A DNA stretch of 64,000 nucleotides from a virus. Shown piece after piece: positions 1 through 24,583 of this stretch (position 1 is its first letter; each line of letters opens with the position of its first letter). The translations under genes and the position numbers were made by a program. The notes below the pieces were generated by a model. It did no database searches. It saw nothing but the letters and a program-made list of their open reading frames with translations, and had not been told where the DNA came from. The DNA lies in IMG/VR virus record IMGVR_UViG_3300020045_001036, positions 31,351-95,350 of that record; one strand, given 5' to 3'.

Positions 1-10
1 TTGCACAACA

Positions 11-89
11 AAATAGAGTAGTTAAAGTTAAGTTACTTCAAAAAATATGGATTTTTAAACAACAAACTTAACTCCTGTTCTCTCTATTT
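11..89 (+). ncRNA. Structured repeat RNA copy 1 (Y RNA/YrlA-like)
   Basis: Outer stem AAATAGAG/CTCTATTT, internal loop TAGTTA / CCTGTTCT, inner stem AGTTAAGTT/AACTTAACT, conserved AGTTACTTCAA at 31-41. Confidence 0.7.
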
Positions 90-93
90 AAAT

Positions 94-167
94 TCCTCTC
101 TAGCTCAATTGGTTAGAGCTCCGCACTGTTAATGCGGAGGTTCCTGGTTCGAGCCCAGGGAGAGGAG
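94..167 (+). tRNA. tRNA-Asn(GTT)
   Basis: Acceptor TCCTCTC/GAGAGGA, anticodon arm CCGCA-CTGTTAA-TGCGG, T loop TTCGAGC. Confidence 0.95.
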
Positions 168-178
168 CAATAAAAACT

Positions 179-250
179 GGGGGAAACGATAGTTCGAACC
201 TATCTGGGGCCACAATAGTGTGGTTCTATCGTCTAGGGGATAGGACGCCC
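179..250 (+). ncRNA. Circularly permuted tRNA-like module without an anticodon loop
   Basis: Order is T arm GATAG-TTCGAAC-CTATC (188-204), acceptor stem TGGGGCCACA/TGTGGTTCTA closed by ATAG loop (205-228), then D arm GTC-TAGGGGATAG-GAC (231-246); GGG/CCC closes the ends. Confidence 0.7.
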
Positions 251-260
251 TAAAATTACA

Positions 261-383
261 AATACAAGGTAGTTATAACTAAGTTACTTCAACTTTAGCT
301 CATAGAGCAAATAACTTTTAATTATTCGGAACCAGTTAAATCTGGTATTTTGCAAACACCTTAGTTAGCATTCTCCTTGTATT
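261..383 (+). ncRNA. Structured repeat RNA copy 2 with embedded degenerate tRNA-Lys(TTT)-like body
   Basis: Outer stem AATACAAGG/CCTTGTATT, inner stem TAACTAAG/CTTAGTTA, AGTTACTTCAA at 282-292; loop has TAGCTCATAGAGCA, AATAA-CTTTTAA-TTATT and ACCAG-TTAAAT-CTGGT. Confidence 0.7.
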
Positions 384-411
384 ATTATTTCTTTATGTGA
401 ATTATATGTTG

Positions 412-419
412 TACCTTTG
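412..419 (+). promoter_or_regulatory. Bacteroidota primary-sigma -7 element TAnnTTTG (TACCTTTG) inside a hairpin
   Basis: Matches TAnnTTTG about 20 nt upstream of the ATG at 440; flanked by inverted repeat ATGTGAATTA...TAATTCACAT (395-436). Confidence 0.55.
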
Positions 420-439
420 TACATATTAATTCACATGTT

Positions 440-904
440 ATGAACACAGAACAATTTATACCTTGGTTTACAGGGTTATTTGAAGGAGAAGGATCCTTCT
501 ACATTACAAAAGGTATAGCAAAAGGCTTATCCTTGACATCTACAGATTTAGATGTGTTAGAGAGAATACAAGAGCATTTAGGTGGCAATATCTGTGCAAG
601 TACAACAAAGAGAGAGCATTGGAAACAAGCCTATATTTGGACTATACACGGTATAAATGCTAAAAGGGTTGTAGAAAATATGCAACCATACCTTTTAAAT
701 AGAAGATTAAATAGATCCCAGGAATGGATATCTTTATATGATGCTAATGTAGAAATACAAGCAACTAAGAAATTAGAACAAGAACAAAAAATTCAACAAA
801 TTTTAATTTTAAGTGAAACAGGTTTAACACATTCTCAAATAGCTTCACAAATGGGTTATGAAAGAAGTAGTGTAACTAAGATCATTAACAAGATTAGACC
901 TTAG
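440..904 (+). CDS. LAGLIDADG-family homing endonuclease with C-terminal HTH
   Basis: N-terminal WFTGLFEGEGSF motif; C-terminal GLTHSQIASQMGYERSSVTKI helix-turn-helix. Confidence 0.8.
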   Translation: MNTEQFIPWFTGLFEGEGSFYITKGIAKGLSLTSTDLDVLERIQEHLGGNICASTTKREHWKQAYIWTIHGINAKRVVENMQPYLLNRRLNRSQEWISLYDANVEIQATKKLEQEQKIQQILILSETGLTHSQIASQMGYERSSVTKIINKIRP

Positions 905-933
905 TCTCACCTTTCACACTAATCTTTATTATT

Positions 934-1119
934 ATGAGCAGAACTTTAAGAAGATCAAAAAAAGATAATAAAATATATCCAGAAGGACAATTTCCTAAAG
1001 TCTTTAGATATGTATGTAGATGTTCTTATTGTACAGGAGTAGATAAACAGACTCTAGTTAATAAGATTCAAAAAAAAGAGTTAAAACAATTAATAAACTA
1101 CAATGCAACATGGATTTAA
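934..1119 (+). CDS. Small basic hypothetical protein (CRCSYC)
   Basis: ORF track; AT-rich leader. Confidence 0.55.
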   Translation: MSRTLRRSKKDNKIYPEGQFPKVFRYVCRCSYCTGVDKQTLVNKIQKKELKQLINYNATWI

Positions 1120-1214
1120 ATAAATATCTAGTATTAGGAATATTAGGTTTAAATATTGCATTATATCTTTATATCTATATCGTAGATATAAAGAAAAATA
1201 AGATAACACAATAG
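1110..1214 (+). CDS. Possible 34-aa membrane peptide
   Basis: Manual translation MDLNKYLVLGILGLNIALYLYIYIVDIKKNKITQ; start overlaps the end of the preceding ORF. Confidence 0.35.
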   Translation: MDLNKYLVLGILGLNIALYLYIYIVDIKKNKITQ

Positions 1215-1288
1215 TAATGAGAAAGTTACTTCAACAAAATCTGTAACATTTTATAAAACCAACTTTCTTAAATGTTCTTTGTGTTTAT
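1203..1288 (+). ncRNA. Structured repeat RNA copy 3 with Tyr(GTA)-like anticodon stem-loop
   Basis: Outer stem AACACAA/TTGTGTT, inner stem TGAGAAAGTT/AACTTTCTTA, AGTTACTTCAA at 1224-1234, loop hairpin AAAAT-CTGTAAC-ATTTT (1236-1252). Confidence 0.7.
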
Positions 1289-1362
1289 GGCCCTTTAGCT
1301 CAGCTTGGTAGAGCAGTTGACTCATAATCAAAAGGTCTCAGGTTCAAATCCTGGAGGGGCCA
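1289..1362 (+). tRNA. tRNA with CAT anticodon, probably Ile2 (lysidine) rather than Met
   Basis: GGCCCTT/AGGGGCC-type acceptor typical of Ile2, loop CTCATAA, T loop TTCAAAT. Confidence 0.85.
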
Positions 1363-1393
1363 CAACTAATTAATTAACTAAACAATTAAAATC

Positions 1394-1537
1394 ATGCCTA
1401 AAGTAAAAATAAAACAACAGACTCCACAAGAACGCGCTGATGCGTTCCATAATTGGATGCAAAATAAAGTCAAATCTGTACATCTAGCTGATAATGCTAA
1501 AATGTCGGAAGCTTATGTAAAAGTATATAAAGCATAG
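1394..1537 (+). CDS. 47-aa hypothetical protein
   Basis: Manual translation MPKVKIKQQTPQERADAFHNWMQNKVKSVHLADNAKMSEAYVKVYKA; A-rich leader; followed by a hairpin at about 1536-1563. Confidence 0.55.
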   Translation: MPKVKIKQQTPQERADAFHNWMQNKVKSVHLADNAKMSEAYVKVYKA

Positions 1538-1642
1538 CCCTATACTTGATGGCTATAGGGTTTAAGTAAGCACATACATTCAGATAACATTACACACTAA
1601 GAACAATTGAATGTTCATTCTGACGTATGTGCTTTAAAATAT

Positions 1643-1713
1643 AGGATATAGTTATAAGTAAGTTACTTCAAAAACGCTATTTTTAAAAAAAACTTACTTA
1701 GCTTTCTTATCCT
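1643..1713 (+). ncRNA. Structured repeat RNA copy 4 (Y RNA/YrlA-like)
   Basis: Outer stem AGGATA/TATCCT, internal loop TAGTTA / GCTTTCT, perfect inner stem TAAGTAAGTT/AACTTACTTA, AGTTACTTCAA at 1661-1671. Confidence 0.7.
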
Positions 1714-1837
1714 TAAACTTAATGAGAGAACCGTGATATGCACCTTTAGGTAGTATAGAGCAAACGTCATACTCATTACAATACTAGTCCATACGGGTAG
1801 ATGGTTAACTTGCTAATACCATGCAAGCTAGTAAAAT

Positions 1838-1908
1838 TGGGATATGGTGTAATGGTAACACAACTGTTTTTGGTGCAGTCTTTCAAGGTTCGAGTCCTTG
1901 TATCCCTA
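1838..1908 (+). tRNA. tRNA-Gln(TTG)
   Basis: TGGGATA/TATCCCT acceptor, ACTGT-TTTTGGT-GCAGT anticodon arm, TTCGAGT T loop. Confidence 0.9.
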
Positions 1909-2092
1909 CTACTCTGTTTACACCTTTGTCATACAAAGTGGGGAGCCATGCCCAGAACACTGGTGAGTTTTGTATGTTATGTAGAAATTTAAACATTCAG
2001 GTCTTAGTTACTTGCAAATAACTAAGATAACAGTTAAGAAGTATATATCAGTATGTGCGAGTACACAGAACTATAGAGAGCTTAACTTTAAT

Positions 2093-2174
2093 GGCTATGT
2101 GGCGGAATTGGTAGACGCACTAGATTTAGGATCTAGCACCGTAAGGTTTGTGGGTTCGAGTCCCACCTAGGCCA
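2093..2174 (+). tRNA. tRNA-Leu(TAG)
   Basis: D arm GCGGAATTGGTAGACGC, CTAGA-TTTAGGA-TCTAG, long variable arm, TTCGAGT; two acceptor-stem mismatches. Confidence 0.88.
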
Positions 2175-2299
2175 CAGCAGTTACTTGATTCTCGTATAGT
2201 ACAGTAACAATTATCAGGATATGAGATGTCCATGGATAGTCCTTTAGTGATGTGGAATTCCATCCTAACATGCCTGAGTAGGAAAGCTTAGGCACCAAT

Positions 2300-2370
2300 G
2301 CGTGGGTGATGTAATGGTAACATGGTGGTCTCCAAAACCATTCTTAGAGGTTCGAGTCCTTTCCTGCGCG
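2300..2370 (+). tRNA. tRNA-Trp(CCA)
   Basis: GTGGT-CTCCAAA-ACCAT anticodon arm, TTCGAGT T loop. Confidence 0.92.
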
Positions 2371-2487
2371 CAAAGAGATAGTATATTTAAGTATATAGTA
2401 ACTAGTATAACTGTTAGAGTAATTAATAATGTATGCGAAATAGTTATTCAATTCTGAAAGCAATTTCTCTTTTTAAATGAAAAGTAT

Positions 2488-2649
2488 ATGGGATACAAAG
2501 ATGAAAATACAAAGCACAGAGTAGGAGTGTTAACACCTAAAAAAGGTTTTAAATGTCCTAAATGTGGCGATGATAAAATTAAAGTTAAAGCTACACTTGT
2601 AGTATGTCCTTCTTGTAAGAAGATAGTAGACGGTAAATATTTAAAATAA
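2488..2649 (+). CDS. 53-aa zinc-ribbon protein
   Basis: Manual translation MGYKDENTKHRVGVLTPKKGFKCPKCGDDKIKVKATLVVCPSCKKIVDGKYLK with two CxxC. Confidence 0.65.
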   Translation: MGYKDENTKHRVGVLTPKKGFKCPKCGDDKIKVKATLVVCPSCKKIVDGKYLK

Positions 2650-2716
2650 AGATTAAGGGTCTTGTAATGTATACACATCTAAGATTGTCACTTATCCATG
2701 TGGGTATCTTTATTAT

Positions 2717-2789
2717 GGTCCTGTAGCTCAGTTGGTAGAGCACCTGCCTGAAGAGCGGGGTGTCAGAAGTTCGAGTCTTCTTGGGACCA
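2717..2789 (+). tRNA. tRNA-Phe(GAA)
   Basis: GGTCCTG/TGGGACC acceptor, CCTGC-CTGAAGA-GCGGG. Confidence 0.93.
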
Positions 2790-2850
2790 CAAATGTGATT
2801 AAACTTTTTCTATGGGGTCACAAAGAGATATATCTCTACATAGAAGCAAT

Positions 2851-2922
2851 GGCCTATTCGTCTATTGGTTAGGACCCCAGGTTTTCAGCCTGGTAAGAAC
2901 AGTTCGACTCTGTTATAGGCTA
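2851..2922 (+). tRNA. tRNA-Glu(TTC)
   Basis: GGCCTAT/ATAGGCT acceptor, CCAGG-TTTTCAG-CCTGG. Confidence 0.93.
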
Positions 2923-2927
2923 CAAAT

Positions 2928-3001
2928 CGTGAGGTAGAGCAGATGGTTAGCTTGCTGGGCTCATAACCCAGAGGTCGGTGGTTCGAATCCACCCCTCGCA
3001 A
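2928..3001 (+). tRNA. Initiator tRNA-fMet(CAT)
   Basis: C1:A72 mismatch and three G-C pairs in CTGGG-CTCATAA-CCCAG. Confidence 0.93.
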
Positions 3002-3057
3002 CTAAAGTGGAGTATACGTGTAGTAACCACAAGATTGATATCATCTACTACACTCTA

Positions 3058-3136
3058 GGGTTTATGGCAGAGCGGTCGAATGCGGCAGACTGTAAATCTG
3101 TTATCCCACACCGTGGTTCGAATCCACGTGGACCCA
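3058..3136 (+). tRNA. tRNA-Tyr(GTA)
   Basis: GGGTTTA/TGGACCC acceptor, GCAGA-CTGTAAA-TCTGT, TTCGAAT. Confidence 0.9.
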
Positions 3137-3184
3137 CAACAAGTCCCTCTAGACATGGATTGTTAAGTTTGTTATTAGTTAATT

Positions 3185-3214
3185 AACCCTGCATAGCAAT
3201 ATGTGGGGTTTTTT
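3185..3214 (+). terminator. Intrinsic terminator ending the tRNA cluster
   Basis: AACCCTGCATA-GCAA-TATGTGGGGTT followed by a T run. Confidence 0.8.
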
Positions 3215-3247
3215 GTGTCTAGTAGGTCAAGATTAAATTTGAGAATT

Positions 3248-3913
3248 ATGTTGAAGAAGAATAAAAAAAGTAGAGTACTAATAATAGGAGATCTACATGA
3301 ACCTTTTAGTTTAAAAGGGTATATGAAACATTGTAAAGATGTTTACAAAAAACACAATTGTGATACAGTAGTATTTATAGGCGATATCATTGACAATCAT
3401 GCTAGTTCTTATCATGAGTCTGACCCTGATGGGCATAGTGCGGGGAGTGAGTTAGATTTAGCAATTAATAAAATTAAATGTTGGTATAGAGCTTTTCCTA
3501 AAGCCACTGTGATTATAGGTAATCATGATAGACTAATATTCAGAAAAGCATTTAGTTCCGGCATTCCAAAAAGATGGATTAAGAACTATTCAGAAATATT
3601 AAAAACTCCAGGATGGGATTTTAGGGAATCTGTTGAGATAGATGGTATATCTTATATTCACGGAGAAGGTGGTACAGCTAGAAATAGAGTTAGAAAAGAT
3701 CTTTGTTCTATAGTGCAAGGTCACTTACATACACAATCTTATACAGAATGGGTAGTAGGTAAAAACTTCAAAATATTTGCTATGCAAGTAGGTTGTGGTA
3801 TTGATGCTAAGGCCTATGCTATGGCTTATGCTAAAAACTTTCCAAAACCTGCAATTAGTTGTGGAGTAGTCTTAGAAGGAGACACAGCATTAAATGAAAT
3901 GATGAATTTATAA
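3248..3913 (+). CDS. Calcineurin-like metallophosphoesterase
   Basis: GDLH, GDIID, GNHD, HG, GHLH motifs; start moved to ATG 3248 because 3203 lies inside the terminator. Confidence 0.88.
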   Translation: MLKKNKKSRVLIIGDLHEPFSLKGYMKHCKDVYKKHNCDTVVFIGDIIDNHASSYHESDPDGHSAGSELDLAINKIKCWYRAFPKATVIIGNHDRLIFRKAFSSGIPKRWIKNYSEILKTPGWDFRESVEIDGISYIHGEGGTARNRVRKDLCSIVQGHLHTQSYTEWVVGKNFKIFAMQVGCGIDAKAYAMAYAKNFPKPAISCGVVLEGDTALNEMMNL

Positions 3914-3931
3914 TTTTCATAAAAAGTTAAA

Positions 3932-4330
3932 AACAAGTTGGTGATACTACACACCTAAGCTCTATGCATCTCAACAAATAGTATAAATTATAGTACAAAC
4001 TTGTCTGAAAGGACTTGGCTTTTATCTATTAGATAGAAGCTGAGTCCTTTACAGAAGAAGGTATTGGTGTCTTTTGTATTAGACAGATGGTTGAACATGA
4101 TCCAACTTGGTTTTATTTATTTTGAGTATTTCTTCCCAGTTATATTTACCCCGTTAGAAACTGTATGCACTTGTGCTACACTAACAAAAATTTAGTTTCT
4201 AACAGTATTCTTTGGAAACCCTCTATTTACAATATCTTATTTATTGATAACACTCTCTGCTTAGAGTGTTTACCAATGATCAGATAACGTAGATTTAGGG
4301 TTTCCTTTTTTCTTTTTCTCAAGGGATACT
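3932..4330 (+). ncRNA. Candidate large structured RNA or structured leader upstream of polA
   Basis: At least five consecutive stems with many G-U pairs on the + strand and no ORF. Confidence 0.45.
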
Positions 4331-23226: not shown

Positions 23227-23426
23227 GATATTTAGTAACAGAAGAATTAAAAACTTCTTTCCTTTTGAAGGTAAAGAGGTTTTTTAGATTAGCAAAACCT
23301 CGAATGGAATTTTTTGCAAATTCTTATGCTACAGGATTTTATCCTGAAGACAAGTCCTACTATATGTGTAGGAATACAGTAAAAATAATTAAAAGAGCAA
23401 AACAAAGATTAGTATGGAAGCAGTAA
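23223..23426 (+). CDS. Hypothetical protein
   Basis: ORF track, coupled. Confidence 0.5.
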   Translation: MRYLVTEELKTSFLLKVKRFFRLAKPRMEFFANSYATGFYPEDKSYYMCRNTVKIIKRAKQRLVWKQ

Positions 23427-24583
23427 TTTTAGTGACAATAAAAAATAAAATTCCTTTATTTAAGGGGAAAGATAAGGCAACTTCAATTGAGTTAATTGAA
23501 TTAGAAGAAGTAGGTTATGAACTAGTTTCTCAAAAAGATTTATATGCGGTAGGAGATAAAGCTATATTAGTACAGCCAGATTATTGTGTAAGTGATACAG
23601 AATTGTTTGAATCGTTTATTAGACCAGATGGTAATGAGTCCAAATCTATGTTGGGTAAAGTAGGAGGATTACCAAGAAGAATTAGAGCTAAGAAATTTAC
23701 TCTATCTAAAGAACCTGAAGGAGCTCCCGTATATTCTAATGGTATCTTACTGAGATACAAAGATGTAGTTAGATATATTGGTAAAGAAATGGATAGCACT
23801 ACTATTACAGCAGACTTAGGAATCACTAAATATGAAGAACCAGAAGCTGGTACTCCAGGGTTAGCTGGTAGAGGTGGTAGAGATTTTCCAACATGGTTGT
23901 ATAAAACAGATGAAACTAACATCAATAACTTGTGGAATCATTTAGAGAAAGTTGTTAAGTGGCCTGTATTCCTTGTGGGTACAGAAAAAGAAGATGGTTC
24001 TAGTATTACTATAGGTAGAAAGGATATGGATGAATACGTATGTTCTAGAAACTTAATTAAACCTTTTGTAGAGACTAGATTTAGTCATATGAGAGATCTT
24101 ACACTTAAGGAAAGATTTAATAAGTTCTTTACTGGTTTAACACCTAACTTAGCTACTTATAAAAAGGTACCTACTACAGACACATTTGTATTGCAAGGTA
24201 AGCCTTACTTAGAACAATTAGAAGGTTATGATAATTTCTTCTTAAGAGGAGAGTTAAATGGTTCTAGTGCTAAAGGATCCGGAAATAAAAACAATCCCGC
24301 AGCTAAAAGAGAATTAAACATCAAATTCTTTGGATTAGATTATATCAATGAAGTTGGTATAGCTGTTAAAGCTAGTAAAGAACAATTTGATAAGTTCTGT
24401 GTAATCAATGAACTACCTCAAGTTAAAACAGTGTTTAGAAAGAAATTCAAAAACAAAGCAGCTCTTGTAAAAGAATGTGAAGCTTATTTCAAAAAGAATC
24501 TTATTGAAGGTATTGTTGTTAGAACTTTGGATAGCTCTTTTAGTGCTAAATACATGAATCTAGAGTATGATTCTAAAAAATAA
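23414..24583 (+). CDS. RNA ligase (Rnl2/DRB0094-like with N-terminal OB domain)
   Basis: KTDE, TEKEDGSS (motif I), CSRN, RGEL.G, EGIVVR, AKY. Confidence 0.85.
   Translation: MEAVILVTIKNKIPLFKGKDKATSIELIELEEVGYELVSQKDLYAVGDKAILVQPDYCVSDTELFESFIRPDGNESKSMLGKVGGLPRRIRAKKFTLSKEPEGAPVYSNGILLRYKDVVRYIGKEMDSTTITADLGITKYEEPEAGTPGLAGRGGRDFPTWLYKTDETNINNLWNHLEKVVKWPVFLVGTEKEDGSSITIGRKDMDEYVCSRNLIKPFVETRFSHMRDLTLKERFNKFFTGLTPNLATYKKVPTTDTFVLQGKPYLEQLEGYDNFFLRGELNGSSAKGSGNKNNPAAKRELNIKFFGLDYINEVGIAVKASKEQFDKFCVINELPQVKTVFRKKFKNKAALVKECEAYFKKNLIEGIVVRTLDSSFSAKYMNLEYDSKK

What the first reader, a model, noticed from the sequence alone, without database searches (positions are those of the whole stretch)
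293..1252. Cargo loops of the repeat RNAs display tRNA anticodon mimics (Lys, Tyr)
Seen: copy 2 holds a shrunken tRNA body with D-arm-like TAGCTCATAGAGCA (296-309), anticodon arm AATAA-CTTTTAA-TTATT (310-326, Lys TTT) and T-arm-like ACCAG-TTAAAT-CTGGT (331-346) but no free acceptor end. Copy 3 holds AAAAT-CTGTAAC-ATTTT (1236-1252, Tyr GTA). Copies 1 and 4 both contain an unpaired TTTTTAA, which is weak evidence in AT-rich DNA. No canonical tRNA-Lys is in the window. Known: PrrC and PARIS AriB cut tRNA-Lys; retron Eco7 PtuAB targets tRNA-Tyr. Inference: non-chargeable decoys for anticodon nucleases, or substrates/guides for an RNA-repair complex.
Basis: partly seen in the sequence, partly recalled or inferred. 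Interest (0 to 1): 0.78.

Follow-up and report, generated by a model that had tools for sequence, protein, structure and literature searches.

The report
Phage Y-like RNAs carrying tRNA mimics
The four repeats are small structured RNAs that most likely partner a Ro60 protein of this crAss-like phage; one carries a worn-down tRNA-like body with an intact lysine-type anticodon arm, and relatives in many phages show this is a family trait.

Summary
Partly confirmed. Copy 2 (window 261-383) holds a tRNA-like body at 289-354. It scores 36.3 bits on Rfam's tRNA model (threshold 29). It has a D arm, a 5-bp anticodon arm with loop CUUUUAA and a T arm, but a degenerate acceptor and elbow. The copy 3 hairpin (1236-1252) exists, but it is AU-only and loses its 7-nt loop in a metagenomic relative. 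TTTTTAA in copies 1 and 4 is chance.

The four repeats share a covarying stem/internal-loop/stem scaffold. All lie 1.9-3.5 kb downstream of a phage Ro60 (TROVE) gene, on its strand. A covariance model finds exactly these four in the genome and 118 matches in 41 viral loci. All 98 that share a locus with Ro60 lie on its strand, and none occurs in 80 bacterial control loci.

Of 112 distinct members, 59 carry a canonical T arm. Of those, 54 have a 7-nt-loop hairpin in tRNA geometry and 49 show U33 plus a purine at 37, against about 2 in shuffles. The arms occur in natural order or in two circular permutations.

Best reading: a new, widespread phage variant of tRNA-mimicking Y RNAs (YrlA/Yrn1 type). 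Here the mimic includes an explicit anticodon arm. The anticodon-nuclease decoy role is untested.

The scan had already noted the Y-RNA-like family on this DNA.

The parts
10..90 (+). Copy 1 of the Y-like RNA scaffold, with a short cargo of about 32 nt: a small hairpin with a UGG-containing loop, then an A-rich tail. It ends 3 nt before tRNA-Asn.
   Evidence: R1 covariance model 83.1 bits; fold. Orthologous cargo in L015:16020 and L014:14027 keeps the same hairpin type.
261..383 (+). Copy 2 of the scaffold, with a 73-nt cargo that is a degenerate tRNA-like domain in natural order.
   Evidence: R1 42.7 bits; fold z = -3.7. Bases 303-354 show no listed difference in contigs of two other runs; record 28 of run X7 covers 251-392 with 1 difference.
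289..354 (+). tRNA-like body inside copy 2: degenerate acceptor 289-295/347-353, D arm 296-309, anticodon arm 310-326 (loop CUUUUAA, Lys-type UUU), variable 327-330, T arm 331-346.
   Evidence: Rfam RF00005 36.3 bits against a threshold of 29, model positions 1-71. ARAGORN calls it only at the relaxed threshold.
1203..1287 (+). Copy 3 of the scaffold, with a 35-nt cargo. It ends 1 nt before tRNA-Met.
   Evidence: R1 71.8 bits; fold. G1219A in a relative turns a G-U pair of the inner stem into A-U.
1236..1252 (+). Weak AU-only hairpin in copy 3 with the 7-nt loop CUGUAAC (Tyr-type GUA). This is a doubtful anticodon mimic.
   Evidence: In the fold, but 0 kcal/mol alone. The loop is not conserved in the X3 relative or in positional orthologues. 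Four other family members do carry anticodon-arm-only cargo.
1640..1716 (+). Copy 4 of the scaffold, with a 28-nt A/U-rich cargo and no convincing structure.
   Evidence: R1 69.7 bits; fold.

Best explanation
The four repeats are phage-encoded Y-RNA-like non-coding RNAs that partner the phage's own Ro60 (TROVE plus vWA) protein, encoded 1.9 kb upstream of copy 1 on the same strand.

Each RNA is closed by its 5' and 3' ends into the following scaffold:
- an outer stem;
- an invariant bulged U;
- an A-U and a G-C pair;
- a conserved internal loop (UAA on the 5' side, AYUUU on the 3' side);
- an inner stem;
- an invariant single-stranded UUACUUC(G).
This scaffold is inferred to be the Ro60-binding platform.

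The apical 'cargo' is a swappable module. Across the family, more than half the cargos are tRNA-like domains with T, D, acceptor-like and anticodon arms. They are wired to the scaffold either at the acceptor end (natural order), between the D arm and the anticodon arm, or at the variable region (two circular permutations).

In this phage:
- Copy 2 is a worn-down natural-order module. Acceptor pairing and the D-loop/T-loop elbow are lost, but the 5-bp/7-nt Lys-type anticodon arm is intact.
- Copies 1 and 4 are short-cargo members.
- Copy 3 may or may not present a minimal anticodon-like hairpin.

By analogy with YrlA and Yrn1, the cargo would couple Ro60 to, or compete for, proteins that recognise tRNA.

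Shown here: scaffold covariation, linkage to Ro60, tRNA-likeness, and the anticodon-loop signature. Inferred only: expression, Ro60 binding and the downstream role.
For: Ro60 identity:
- The 545-aa ORF at L005:3852-5489 hits Pfam TROVE and vWA_Ro60 and PHROG 850 over its full length.
- It also hits the solved Ro60 structures 1YVP, 9KOP and 9NEN.

Scaffold:
- Nine short copies: 92.6% of cells paired against 42-58% when partners are slid, and 12 of 18 pairs have compensatory changes.
- 112 distinct members: 17 of 18 pairs are compensatory and 92% of cells are paired.
- Model R1 finds exactly 4 matches in the 95-kb genome, all on the + strand.

Linkage to Ro60:
- A 15-base pattern scan that did not use Ro60 gave 74 viral loci. 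44 have R1 matches, and 26 of those 44 hold Ro60 in the fetched DNA, against 0 of the 30 without R1.
- 6 more of 15 full records have TROVE. The other 9 are fragments, 2-37% complete.
- 98 of 98 matches are on Ro60's strand. The median distance is 955 nt and 89 lie within 4 kb. Ro60 identity to the window's protein ranges from 27 to 61%.
- Several Ro60-plus-RNA loci have no tRNA genes.
- The same pattern in 80 bacterial loci gives 0 R1 matches.
- Cellulophaga phage phi14:2, the nearest cultured relative, has no Ro60 hit and no R1 match. crAssphage cr111_1 has Ro60 and an unannotated R1 match 670 nt upstream of it.

Cargo:
- 59 of 112 members have a canonical T arm. 54 of these have a 7-nt-loop hairpin in tRNA geometry, and 49 show U33 and R37. 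Shuffles give means of 12.8 and 2.0.
- The anticodon arm covaries in the class closest to copy 2.
- Folds show the modular arms.
Against: - No expression data: no RNA run was listed as holding the sequence.
- The published bacterial Ro-binding motif GNCGAAN0-1G is absent from all 112 members.
- No Rfam family other than tRNA matches these elements.
- Ro60 binding is inferred only from genomic linkage.
- Part of the 5' motif's conservation is by ascertainment, because the retrieval pattern contained it.
- Many members are related, so the counts are not independent events.
- Alignment A3 is fitted to the model.
- Copy 2's own anticodon stem is all A-U and is not predicted to fold by thermodynamics alone.
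Confidence: 0.78

Rival explanations
1. Anticodon-nuclease decoys. The RNAs, held stable on Ro60, present non-chargeable anticodon stem-loops. These soak up or competitively inhibit host tRNA-cleaving defence nucleases of the PrrC, RloC or PARIS AriB kind and so spare real tRNAs. This is a specific version of the role of the best explanation, not an alternative identity.
For: - Anticodon-type loops are nearly universal in tRNA-like members.
- Copy 2 keeps the anticodon arm while the acceptor and elbow have decayed.
- Some members carry an anticodon arm as their only cargo. Three have Lys-type loops: L080:5278, L091:3893 and L016:11279.
- Lys-type CUUUUAA recurs in natural, permuted and arm-only formats.
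- 19 of 36 displayed anticodons duplicate a canonical tRNA in the same phage locus, so they are not filling decoding gaps.
- Hughes et al. 2020 proposed competitive inhibition of an anticodon nuclease by YrlA.
Against: - There is no functional data.
- 26 different anticodons are displayed, with no focus on known nuclease targets.
- UUU is also favoured by the AT-rich base composition.
- From my own knowledge: PrrC-type nucleases depend on anticodon modifications, and the modification state of these RNAs is unknown.
- A stoichiometric decoy would have to be very abundant.
- Copy 3's loop is not conserved.
Confidence: 0.15
2. Genuine tRNA genes or their relics. Natural-order members would be real tRNA precursors whose leader and trailer pair and perhaps recruit Ro60 for quality control. 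On this view copy 2 is simply a dying tRNA-Lys gene with no role of its own.
For: - ARAGORN at default settings calls at least 14 natural-order homologues as tRNAs, for example L013:10077-10149 as Leu(tag). That one scores 49.3 bits on Rfam.
- Copy 2 has lost its elbow and acceptor pairing.
- The phage has no other tRNA-Lys.
- M. smegmatis YrlA is cut by RNase P and receives CCA (PMC4201824).
Against: - 30 members are circular permutations with a capped acceptor stem, so they cannot be ordinary tRNAs.
- 44 members have no tRNA-like part, yet keep the scaffold next to Ro60.
- Acceptor stems are 5-6 bp, and no CCA or conserved discriminator is present.
- Half of the anticodons duplicate canonical tRNAs in the same locus.
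- Copy 2's arms are unchanged in relatives whose flanking linker differs.
Confidence: 0.12
3. Chance, for everything outside copy 2. The copy 3 hairpin and the TTTTTAA strings would be accidents of AT-rich sequence with no anticodon-mimic meaning.
For: - TTTTTAA occurs 53 times against 60 expected.
- The copy 3 stem is 5 A-U pairs and folds to 0 kcal/mol alone.
- The loop is 13 nt in the X3 relative.
- Positional orthologues upstream of tRNA-Met (L014:12081, L015:12260) have no such hairpin.
Against: - Among 53 members without a T arm, 10 have a 5-bp/7-nt hairpin with U33 and R37, against 0.7 expected. None of 500 shuffles reaches that count.
- L023:12481, another positional orthologue, has a near-hairpin with loop UUUUUAG.
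Confidence: 0.6

Closest known systems
YrlA RNAs (Salmonella, Mycobacterium, mycobacteriophages; Chen et al. 2014, PMC4201824)
   Same: - Non-coding RNA encoded within 4 kb of a Ro60 orthologue on the same strand.
- The ends pair into a stem.
- A tRNA-like domain with canonical T and D arms and a capped acceptor-like stem, in permuted T-acceptor-D order, as in 30 family members here.
   Different: - No GNCGAAN0-1G motif (0 of 112). The scaffold has its own conserved loop and UUACUUC(G).
- YrlA has no anticodon loop, whereas here a 5-bp/7-nt arm with U33 and R37 is the rule.
- There are three wiring topologies instead of one.
- There are 3-7 paralogues per locus, interleaved with tRNA genes.
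- The window's own copy 2 is in natural order and degenerate.
Deinococcus radiodurans Yrn1 (Chen et al. 2013, 2014)
   Same: - A Ro60-bound Y RNA that keeps both strands of the binding helix.
- A T arm.
- An 'anticodon arm' with a 5-bp stem between the D-like and T arms, in natural orientation as in copy 2.
   Different: - Yrn1's loop is 6 nt and its D arm is doubtful.
- Here the loops are 7 nt with the tRNA signature.
- Yrn1 tethers Ro60 to PNPase; no partner is known here.
Thermus phage phiLo Yrl1/Yrl2 with phiRo60 (PMC12135203)
   Same: - A phage-encoded Ro60 with adjacent Y-like RNAs of stem-bulge-stem form.
- This shows experimentally that a phage Ro60 binds its neighbouring RNAs and can engage host PNPase.
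   Different: - Those RNAs were recognised by a CGAA motif in the bulge.
- In the passages I read, no tRNA-like cargo is described for them.
- The phage and host lineage is different.
Phage tRNA arrays proposed to offset host tRNA-cleaving defences (recalled from my own knowledge, not checked here)
   Same: - Located in the phage tRNA cluster.
- Lys-type anticodon.
- Possible relevance to anticodon nucleases.
   Different: - Those are chargeable tRNAs that replace cleaved ones.
- Copy 2 has no usable acceptor end, and the permuted members cannot be charged as they stand.

Membership tests
Y RNA / Yrl (Ro60-associated non-coding RNA) | Encoded near (within about 4 kb of) a Ro60/TROVE gene, on the same strand | tested here: met
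   The window copies lie 1875, 2126, 3068 and 3505 nt downstream of Ro60. Across the family, 98 of 98 are on Ro60's strand and 89 lie within 4 kb.
Y RNA / Yrl (Ro60-associated non-coding RNA) | 5' and 3' ends pair into a stem interrupted by a conserved bulge or internal loop | tested here: met
   Folds. Covariation: 12 of 18 pairs compensatory in 9 sequences and 17 of 18 in 112. The bulged U is 99% conserved.
Y RNA / Yrl (Ro60-associated non-coding RNA) | Published Ro60-contact motif (bacterial GNCGAAN0-1G; CGAA in phage phiLo) | tested here: not met
   G.CGAA occurs in 0 of 112 members. CGAA occurs in 22 of 112, and only because UUACUUCG is sometimes followed by AA. The window copies read UUACUUCAA.
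Y RNA / Yrl (Ro60-associated non-coding RNA) | Match to a curated Y-RNA model | tested here: not met
   Rfam 15 at E up to 1 gives only tRNA and tmRNA matches plus a few weak, unrelated ones far below their gathering scores over L005 and window 1-4000. I did not check whether a YrlA model exists in Rfam.
Y RNA / Yrl (Ro60-associated non-coding RNA) | Physical binding to Ro60 and accumulation as a stable small RNA | not testable with these tools
   No RNA run was listed. Contigs cannot show RNA ends.
YrlA-type tRNA mimic | Domain with canonical T arm and D arm able to form the tRNA elbow | tested here: inconclusive
   Met in 59 of 112 relatives. In window copy 2 the arms are present, but the D loop lacks GG and the T loop is UUAAAU.
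Functional tRNA-Lys | 7-bp acceptor stem with a free 3' end, G18G19 in the D loop, and a UUCRANY T loop | tested here: not met
   Only 4 of 7 acceptor pairs form, the 3' side runs on into the scaffold, the D loop is 3 nt and the T loop 6 nt. ARAGORN does not call it at default settings.
Functional tRNA-Lys | Anticodon arm: 5-bp stem and 7-nt loop with U33 and a purine at 37 | tested here: met
   AAUAA-CUUUUAA-UUAUU at 310-326.
Anticodon-nuclease decoy (functional class) | Binds or is cleaved by a tRNA-targeting nuclease and protects tRNA or the phage | not testable with these tools
   Only indirect sequence evidence.

The most novel reading that the evidence does not exclude
Ro60-encoding phages, crAss-like ones among them, carry a panel of Ro60-bound RNAs. 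Each displays a different anticodon stem-loop on a common scaffold, in three circular permutations or as a bare arm. The panel would act as a programmable set of decoys or sensors against host defences that cleave or modify specific tRNAs. In this phage the Lys-type arm of copy 2 would be the working part that survived while the rest of the tRNA body decayed.
Probability: 0.15. Interest if true: 0.85.

Novelty: new variant of a known kind. Interest (0 to 1): 0.64.

Why it matters
What the tRNA-like module of bacterial Y RNAs is for has been open since 2014. This phage family offers a natural experiment on that question.
- One scaffold tied to Ro60 carries cargos that range from nothing, through a bare anticodon arm, to complete tRNA-like bodies in three wirings, with at least 26 different anticodon-type loops.
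- The idea that Y RNAs compete with tRNAs for nucleases or other tRNA-binding proteins therefore becomes directly testable.
- The RNAs occur in Crassvirales, including the published genome cr111_1, where the element is unannotated. Several relatives are currently called as ordinary tRNAs by ARAGORN, so phage tRNA counts and codon-usage arguments may be inflated.

Tried and rejected
The contigs of the closest Ro60 relatives (83-86% identity, P0002-P0005) could not be fetched, so conservation of copies 2 and 3 in near relatives rests only on Logan contigs.
- The look-up of sequencing runs: no RNA holder was listed and all holders had small shares.
- The window-specific 23-base pattern hit seven viral loci. 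All looked like matches inside coding sequence, with no 3' partner.
- With filters off, R1 missed most long-cargo members in L014-L018. With default filters it found them, and a hand-written descriptor also did.
- MAFFT misplaced window copy 2 in alignment A4, so its homology to the natural-order class rests on cmscan and on inspection.
- RtcB is absent from the genome. An RNA_ligase-family ORF exists but is 23 kb away.
- Phage csAssE-Sib has an annotated Ro60 but no R1 match.
- I considered and rejected three other identities for the repeats. Promoter or terminator elements and homing-endonuclease target repeats do not fit, because the scaffold covaries as RNA and tracks Ro60 on one strand only. 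A dependence on tRNA clusters does not fit either, because some Ro60-plus-RNA loci have no tRNA genes.
Full report
OBSERVATION

Copy 2. Rfam's tRNA covariance model aligns window 289-354 over its whole length at 36.3 bits (gathering score 29).
- Present: U8-A9, a 4-bp D stem, a 5-bp anticodon stem with loop CUUUUAA, a 4-nt variable region and a 5-bp T stem.
- Degenerate: the D loop has 3 nt and no GG, the T loop has 6 nt and no C56, and only 4 of 7 acceptor pairs form.
- ARAGORN misses it at default settings. It calls it Lys(ttt) only at a threshold that produces dozens of false calls.

Copy 3. The 5-bp/7-nt hairpin is part of the minimum-energy fold of the element. It is all A-U and does not fold on its own; the same is true of copy 2's anticodon arm.

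Copies 1 and 4. TTTTTAA is at chance frequency, 53 seen against 60 expected.

tRNA-Lys. The window and the whole 95,350-bp genome have nine canonical tRNAs and none for Lys.

WHAT THE REPEATS ARE

The window is bases 31351-95350 of a complete virus record with terminal repeats. Its nearest cultured relative is Cellulophaga phage phi14:2, of the Crassvirales.

The 12-mer AAGTTACTTCAA occurs exactly four times in the genome, all on the + strand and within 1.7 kb. Each copy folds into the same architecture:
- an outer stem;
- a bulged U;
- an A-U and a G-C pair;
- an internal loop;
- an inner stem;
- single-stranded UUACUUC;
- the cargo;
- the return strands.

Evidence that this structure is real:
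- A related phage found through the neighbouring protein (L013) has at least five copies with different stem sequences.
- In nine short-cargo copies from four phages, 92.6% of cells are paired, against 42-58% when partners are slid. Twelve of 18 pairs show compensatory changes.
- A covariance model built from them (R1) finds exactly the four window copies in the whole genome.
- R1 finds 118 matches (112 distinct) in 41 viral loci. There, 17 of 18 pairs are compensatory.

Caveat: that alignment is fitted to the model, and many of its members are related.

LINK TO Ro60

The 545-aa ORF ending 1,875 nt upstream of copy 1 (outside the window, at L005:3852-5489) is a Ro60 orthologue. It hits Pfam TROVE and vWA_Ro60, PHROG 850 over its full length, and the solved Ro60 structures from frog, human and Thermus phage phiLo.

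A phage tmRNA lies between Ro60 and copy 1.

Because the first related loci were chosen through Ro60, I also searched without it, using a 15-base pattern taken from the scaffold.
- The pattern gave 86 viral stretches.
- Of the 74 loci searched with R1, 44 have matches.
- Ro60 is in the fetched DNA of 26 of those 44, and of none of the other 30.
- TROVE is present elsewhere in 6 more of 15 full records. The remaining 9 are fragments, 2-37% complete.
- All 98 RNA matches that share a locus with Ro60 are on its strand. The median distance is 955 nt and 89 lie within 4 kb. The Ro60 proteins are as little as 27% identical to the window's.
- Some of these loci contain no tRNA gene, so the tie is to Ro60 and not to tRNA clusters.

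Controls:
- The same pattern in bacterial genomes gave 80 loci with no R1 match.
- phi14:2, which has no Ro60 hit, has no R1 match.
- The published crAssphage cr111_1 has a Ro60-like CDS annotated as hypothetical, and an unannotated R1 match 670 nt upstream of it.
- A 635-kb uncultured phage shows the same arrangement.

This meets the genomic criterion that Chen et al. 2014 used for bacterial and phage Y RNAs.

THE CARGO ACROSS THE FAMILY

The 112 distinct members fall into these classes:
- 44 have short cargos of 19-47 nt.
- 28 have a tRNA-like domain in natural order (D arm or a hairpin, anticodon arm, variable region, T arm, and a 5-6-bp acceptor-like stem).
- 20 are circularly permuted in the order anticodon arm, variable region, T arm, capped acceptor, D arm.
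- 10 are permuted in the order T arm, capped acceptor, D arm, anticodon arm.
- 9 are long with no canonical T arm. Window copy 2 is one of these.
- 1 has a T arm followed by other sequence.

Thermodynamic folds of representatives reproduce these modules.

The anticodon arm is a family feature:
- Of the 59 members with a canonical T arm, 54 have a hairpin with a 7-nt loop at the tRNA distance from the T arm. In the T-first class it follows the D arm.
- 49 of those loops have U at position 2 and a purine at position 6.
- When the sequence outside the T arm is shuffled, the means are 12.8 and 2.0, and the maxima are 27 and 6.
- Twenty-six different 'anticodons' occur. GUU, UGA, UUG, UAA, UUU and CAU are the most frequent.
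- In the natural-order class closest to copy 2, RNAalifold predicts the arm independently, and two of its pairs switch between G-C, A-U and U-A.

Among the 53 members without a T arm, 10 have a 5-bp/7-nt hairpin with this signature, against 0.7 expected.
- Three of the 10 are a different conserved hairpin with a UGG loop (copy 1 and its orthologues).
- Four or five carry an anticodon arm as essentially their only cargo. Three of these have Lys-type loops.

The enrichment is strong, but it belongs to tRNA-like and arm-only cargos and not to every copy.

BACK TO THE WINDOW

Copy 2 is a decayed member of the natural-order class. Its 3' acceptor strand and following linker resemble those of relatives such as L045:2528. 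Its 5' acceptor strand, D loop and T loop have drifted, while the anticodon arm is complete. Contigs from two other metagenomic runs show no listed difference in 303-354, although the linker and the scaffold loop differ. This is a weak hint of constraint over a short evolutionary distance.

Copy 3 is doubtful.
- Positional orthologues upstream of tRNA-Met either lack the hairpin or have a near-hairpin with a different loop.
- One relative's contig has six inserted bases in the loop.

Copies 1 and 4 carry no anticodon mimic.

MECHANISM

Established knowledge:
- Ro60 rings bind the stem of Y RNAs, and the rest of the RNA tethers or gates partners such as PNPase.
- YrlA's tRNA-like domain is modified by TruB and DusA, and in M. 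smegmatis it is cut by RNase P (PMC4201824).
- A phage Ro60 binds its neighbouring Yrl RNAs and host PNPase in vitro (PMC12135203).
- In Salmonella, the rsr-yrlBA-rtcBA operon is induced by tRNA halves made by an anticodon nuclease. Its authors suggested that YrlA might competitively inhibit that nuclease (PMC7790460).

I infer that the conserved scaffold docks Ro60 and that the cargo addresses tRNA-recognising proteins. The decoy version is attractive for four reasons:
- the anticodon arm is the best-kept part of copy 2;
- arm-only cargos exist;
- about half of the displayed anticodons duplicate a canonical tRNA in the same locus;
- permuted members cannot be ordinary tRNAs.

No step of the decoy version has been shown, and the diversity of anticodons argues against a single target. 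A role as true tRNA precursors cannot be excluded for some natural-order relatives that ARAGORN calls as tRNAs. It does not fit copy 2 or the permuted classes.

COMPARISON AND NOVELTY

In function and context this is a Y RNA of the tRNA-mimic kind. It fails two membership features: the GNCGAA motif (0 of 112) and any curated model. I therefore file it as a new variant of a known kind. Its distinguishing features are:
- a distinct scaffold;
- multi-copy arrays inside phage tRNA clusters;
- three wiring topologies;
- an explicit anticodon arm, which YrlA lacks and which Yrn1 has only in a 6-nt-loop form.

Earlier notes of this scan on the same DNA had already proposed the Y-RNA-like family and the nearby permuted tRNA. 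I had reached the Ro60/Y-RNA reading independently before that look-up.

LIMITS

- There is no expression or binding evidence.
- The counts are inflated by relatedness and by retrieval with a scaffold motif.

Noticed in passing
window 176-252: A circularly permuted tRNA-like element with no scaffold around it. It has a T arm, a 7-bp acceptor capped by a loop, and a D arm, closed by a short stem where the anticodon stem would be (YrlA-like topology). The minimum-energy fold gives this cloverleaf. One contig of run X2 joins 167 to 259 and so lacks the element.
   Followed up: partly
L005:6714-7084 (267-637 nt before the window's first base): A phage-encoded tmRNA (Rfam RF00023, 56.5 bits, full length) lies between Ro60 and copy 1. 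The related phage L013 has one at the same place, below threshold at 34.5 bits.
   Followed up: no
window 440-904: A free-standing LAGLIDADG homing-endonuclease ORF with a C-terminal HTH lies between copies 2 and 3. A relative's contig joins 408 to 894 and so lacks it, as expected of a mobile gene.
   Followed up: partly
window 2001-2028: A 10-bp hairpin (z = -3.0) whose arms use the same 8-mers as copy 2's inner stem, in swapped order. Its loop CUUGCAAA resembles the scaffold's UUACUUC motif. It may be a remnant or a partner of the repeat family.
   Followed up: no
L036:1600-1735, L045:2979-3111; L028, L048, L050, L075, L090: Some scaffold-embedded tRNA-like modules display stop-codon-reading anticodons: UCA, called tRNA-SeC, and UUA, called tRNA-Stop. 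Free suppressor-type tRNAs with anticodon CUA sit near Ro60 in five loci with distant Ro60. This may reflect stop-codon recoding in those phages.
   Followed up: no
window 23414-24583: A 389-aa ORF matching Pfam RNA_ligase (PF09414, 33.4 bits). The genome has no RtcB. I did not resolve whether this is an RNA-repair ligase or a DNA ligase.
   Followed up: no
window 1570-1640: Read directly from the sequence: a long-range 9-bp stem (AGCACAUAC with GUAUGUGCU) encloses about 50 nt just upstream of copy 4. It follows a terminator-like hairpin at about 1538-1560 that comes after the 47-aa ORF. It could be another small structured RNA.
   Followed up: no
L234:5223-5296 (NC_055880.1, crAssphage cr111_1): The published Crassvirales genome has an unannotated member of this RNA family (R1, 39.9 bits). 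It lies 670 nt upstream of a 552-aa CDS annotated 'hypothetical protein', which is the Ro60 homologue.
   Followed up: partly
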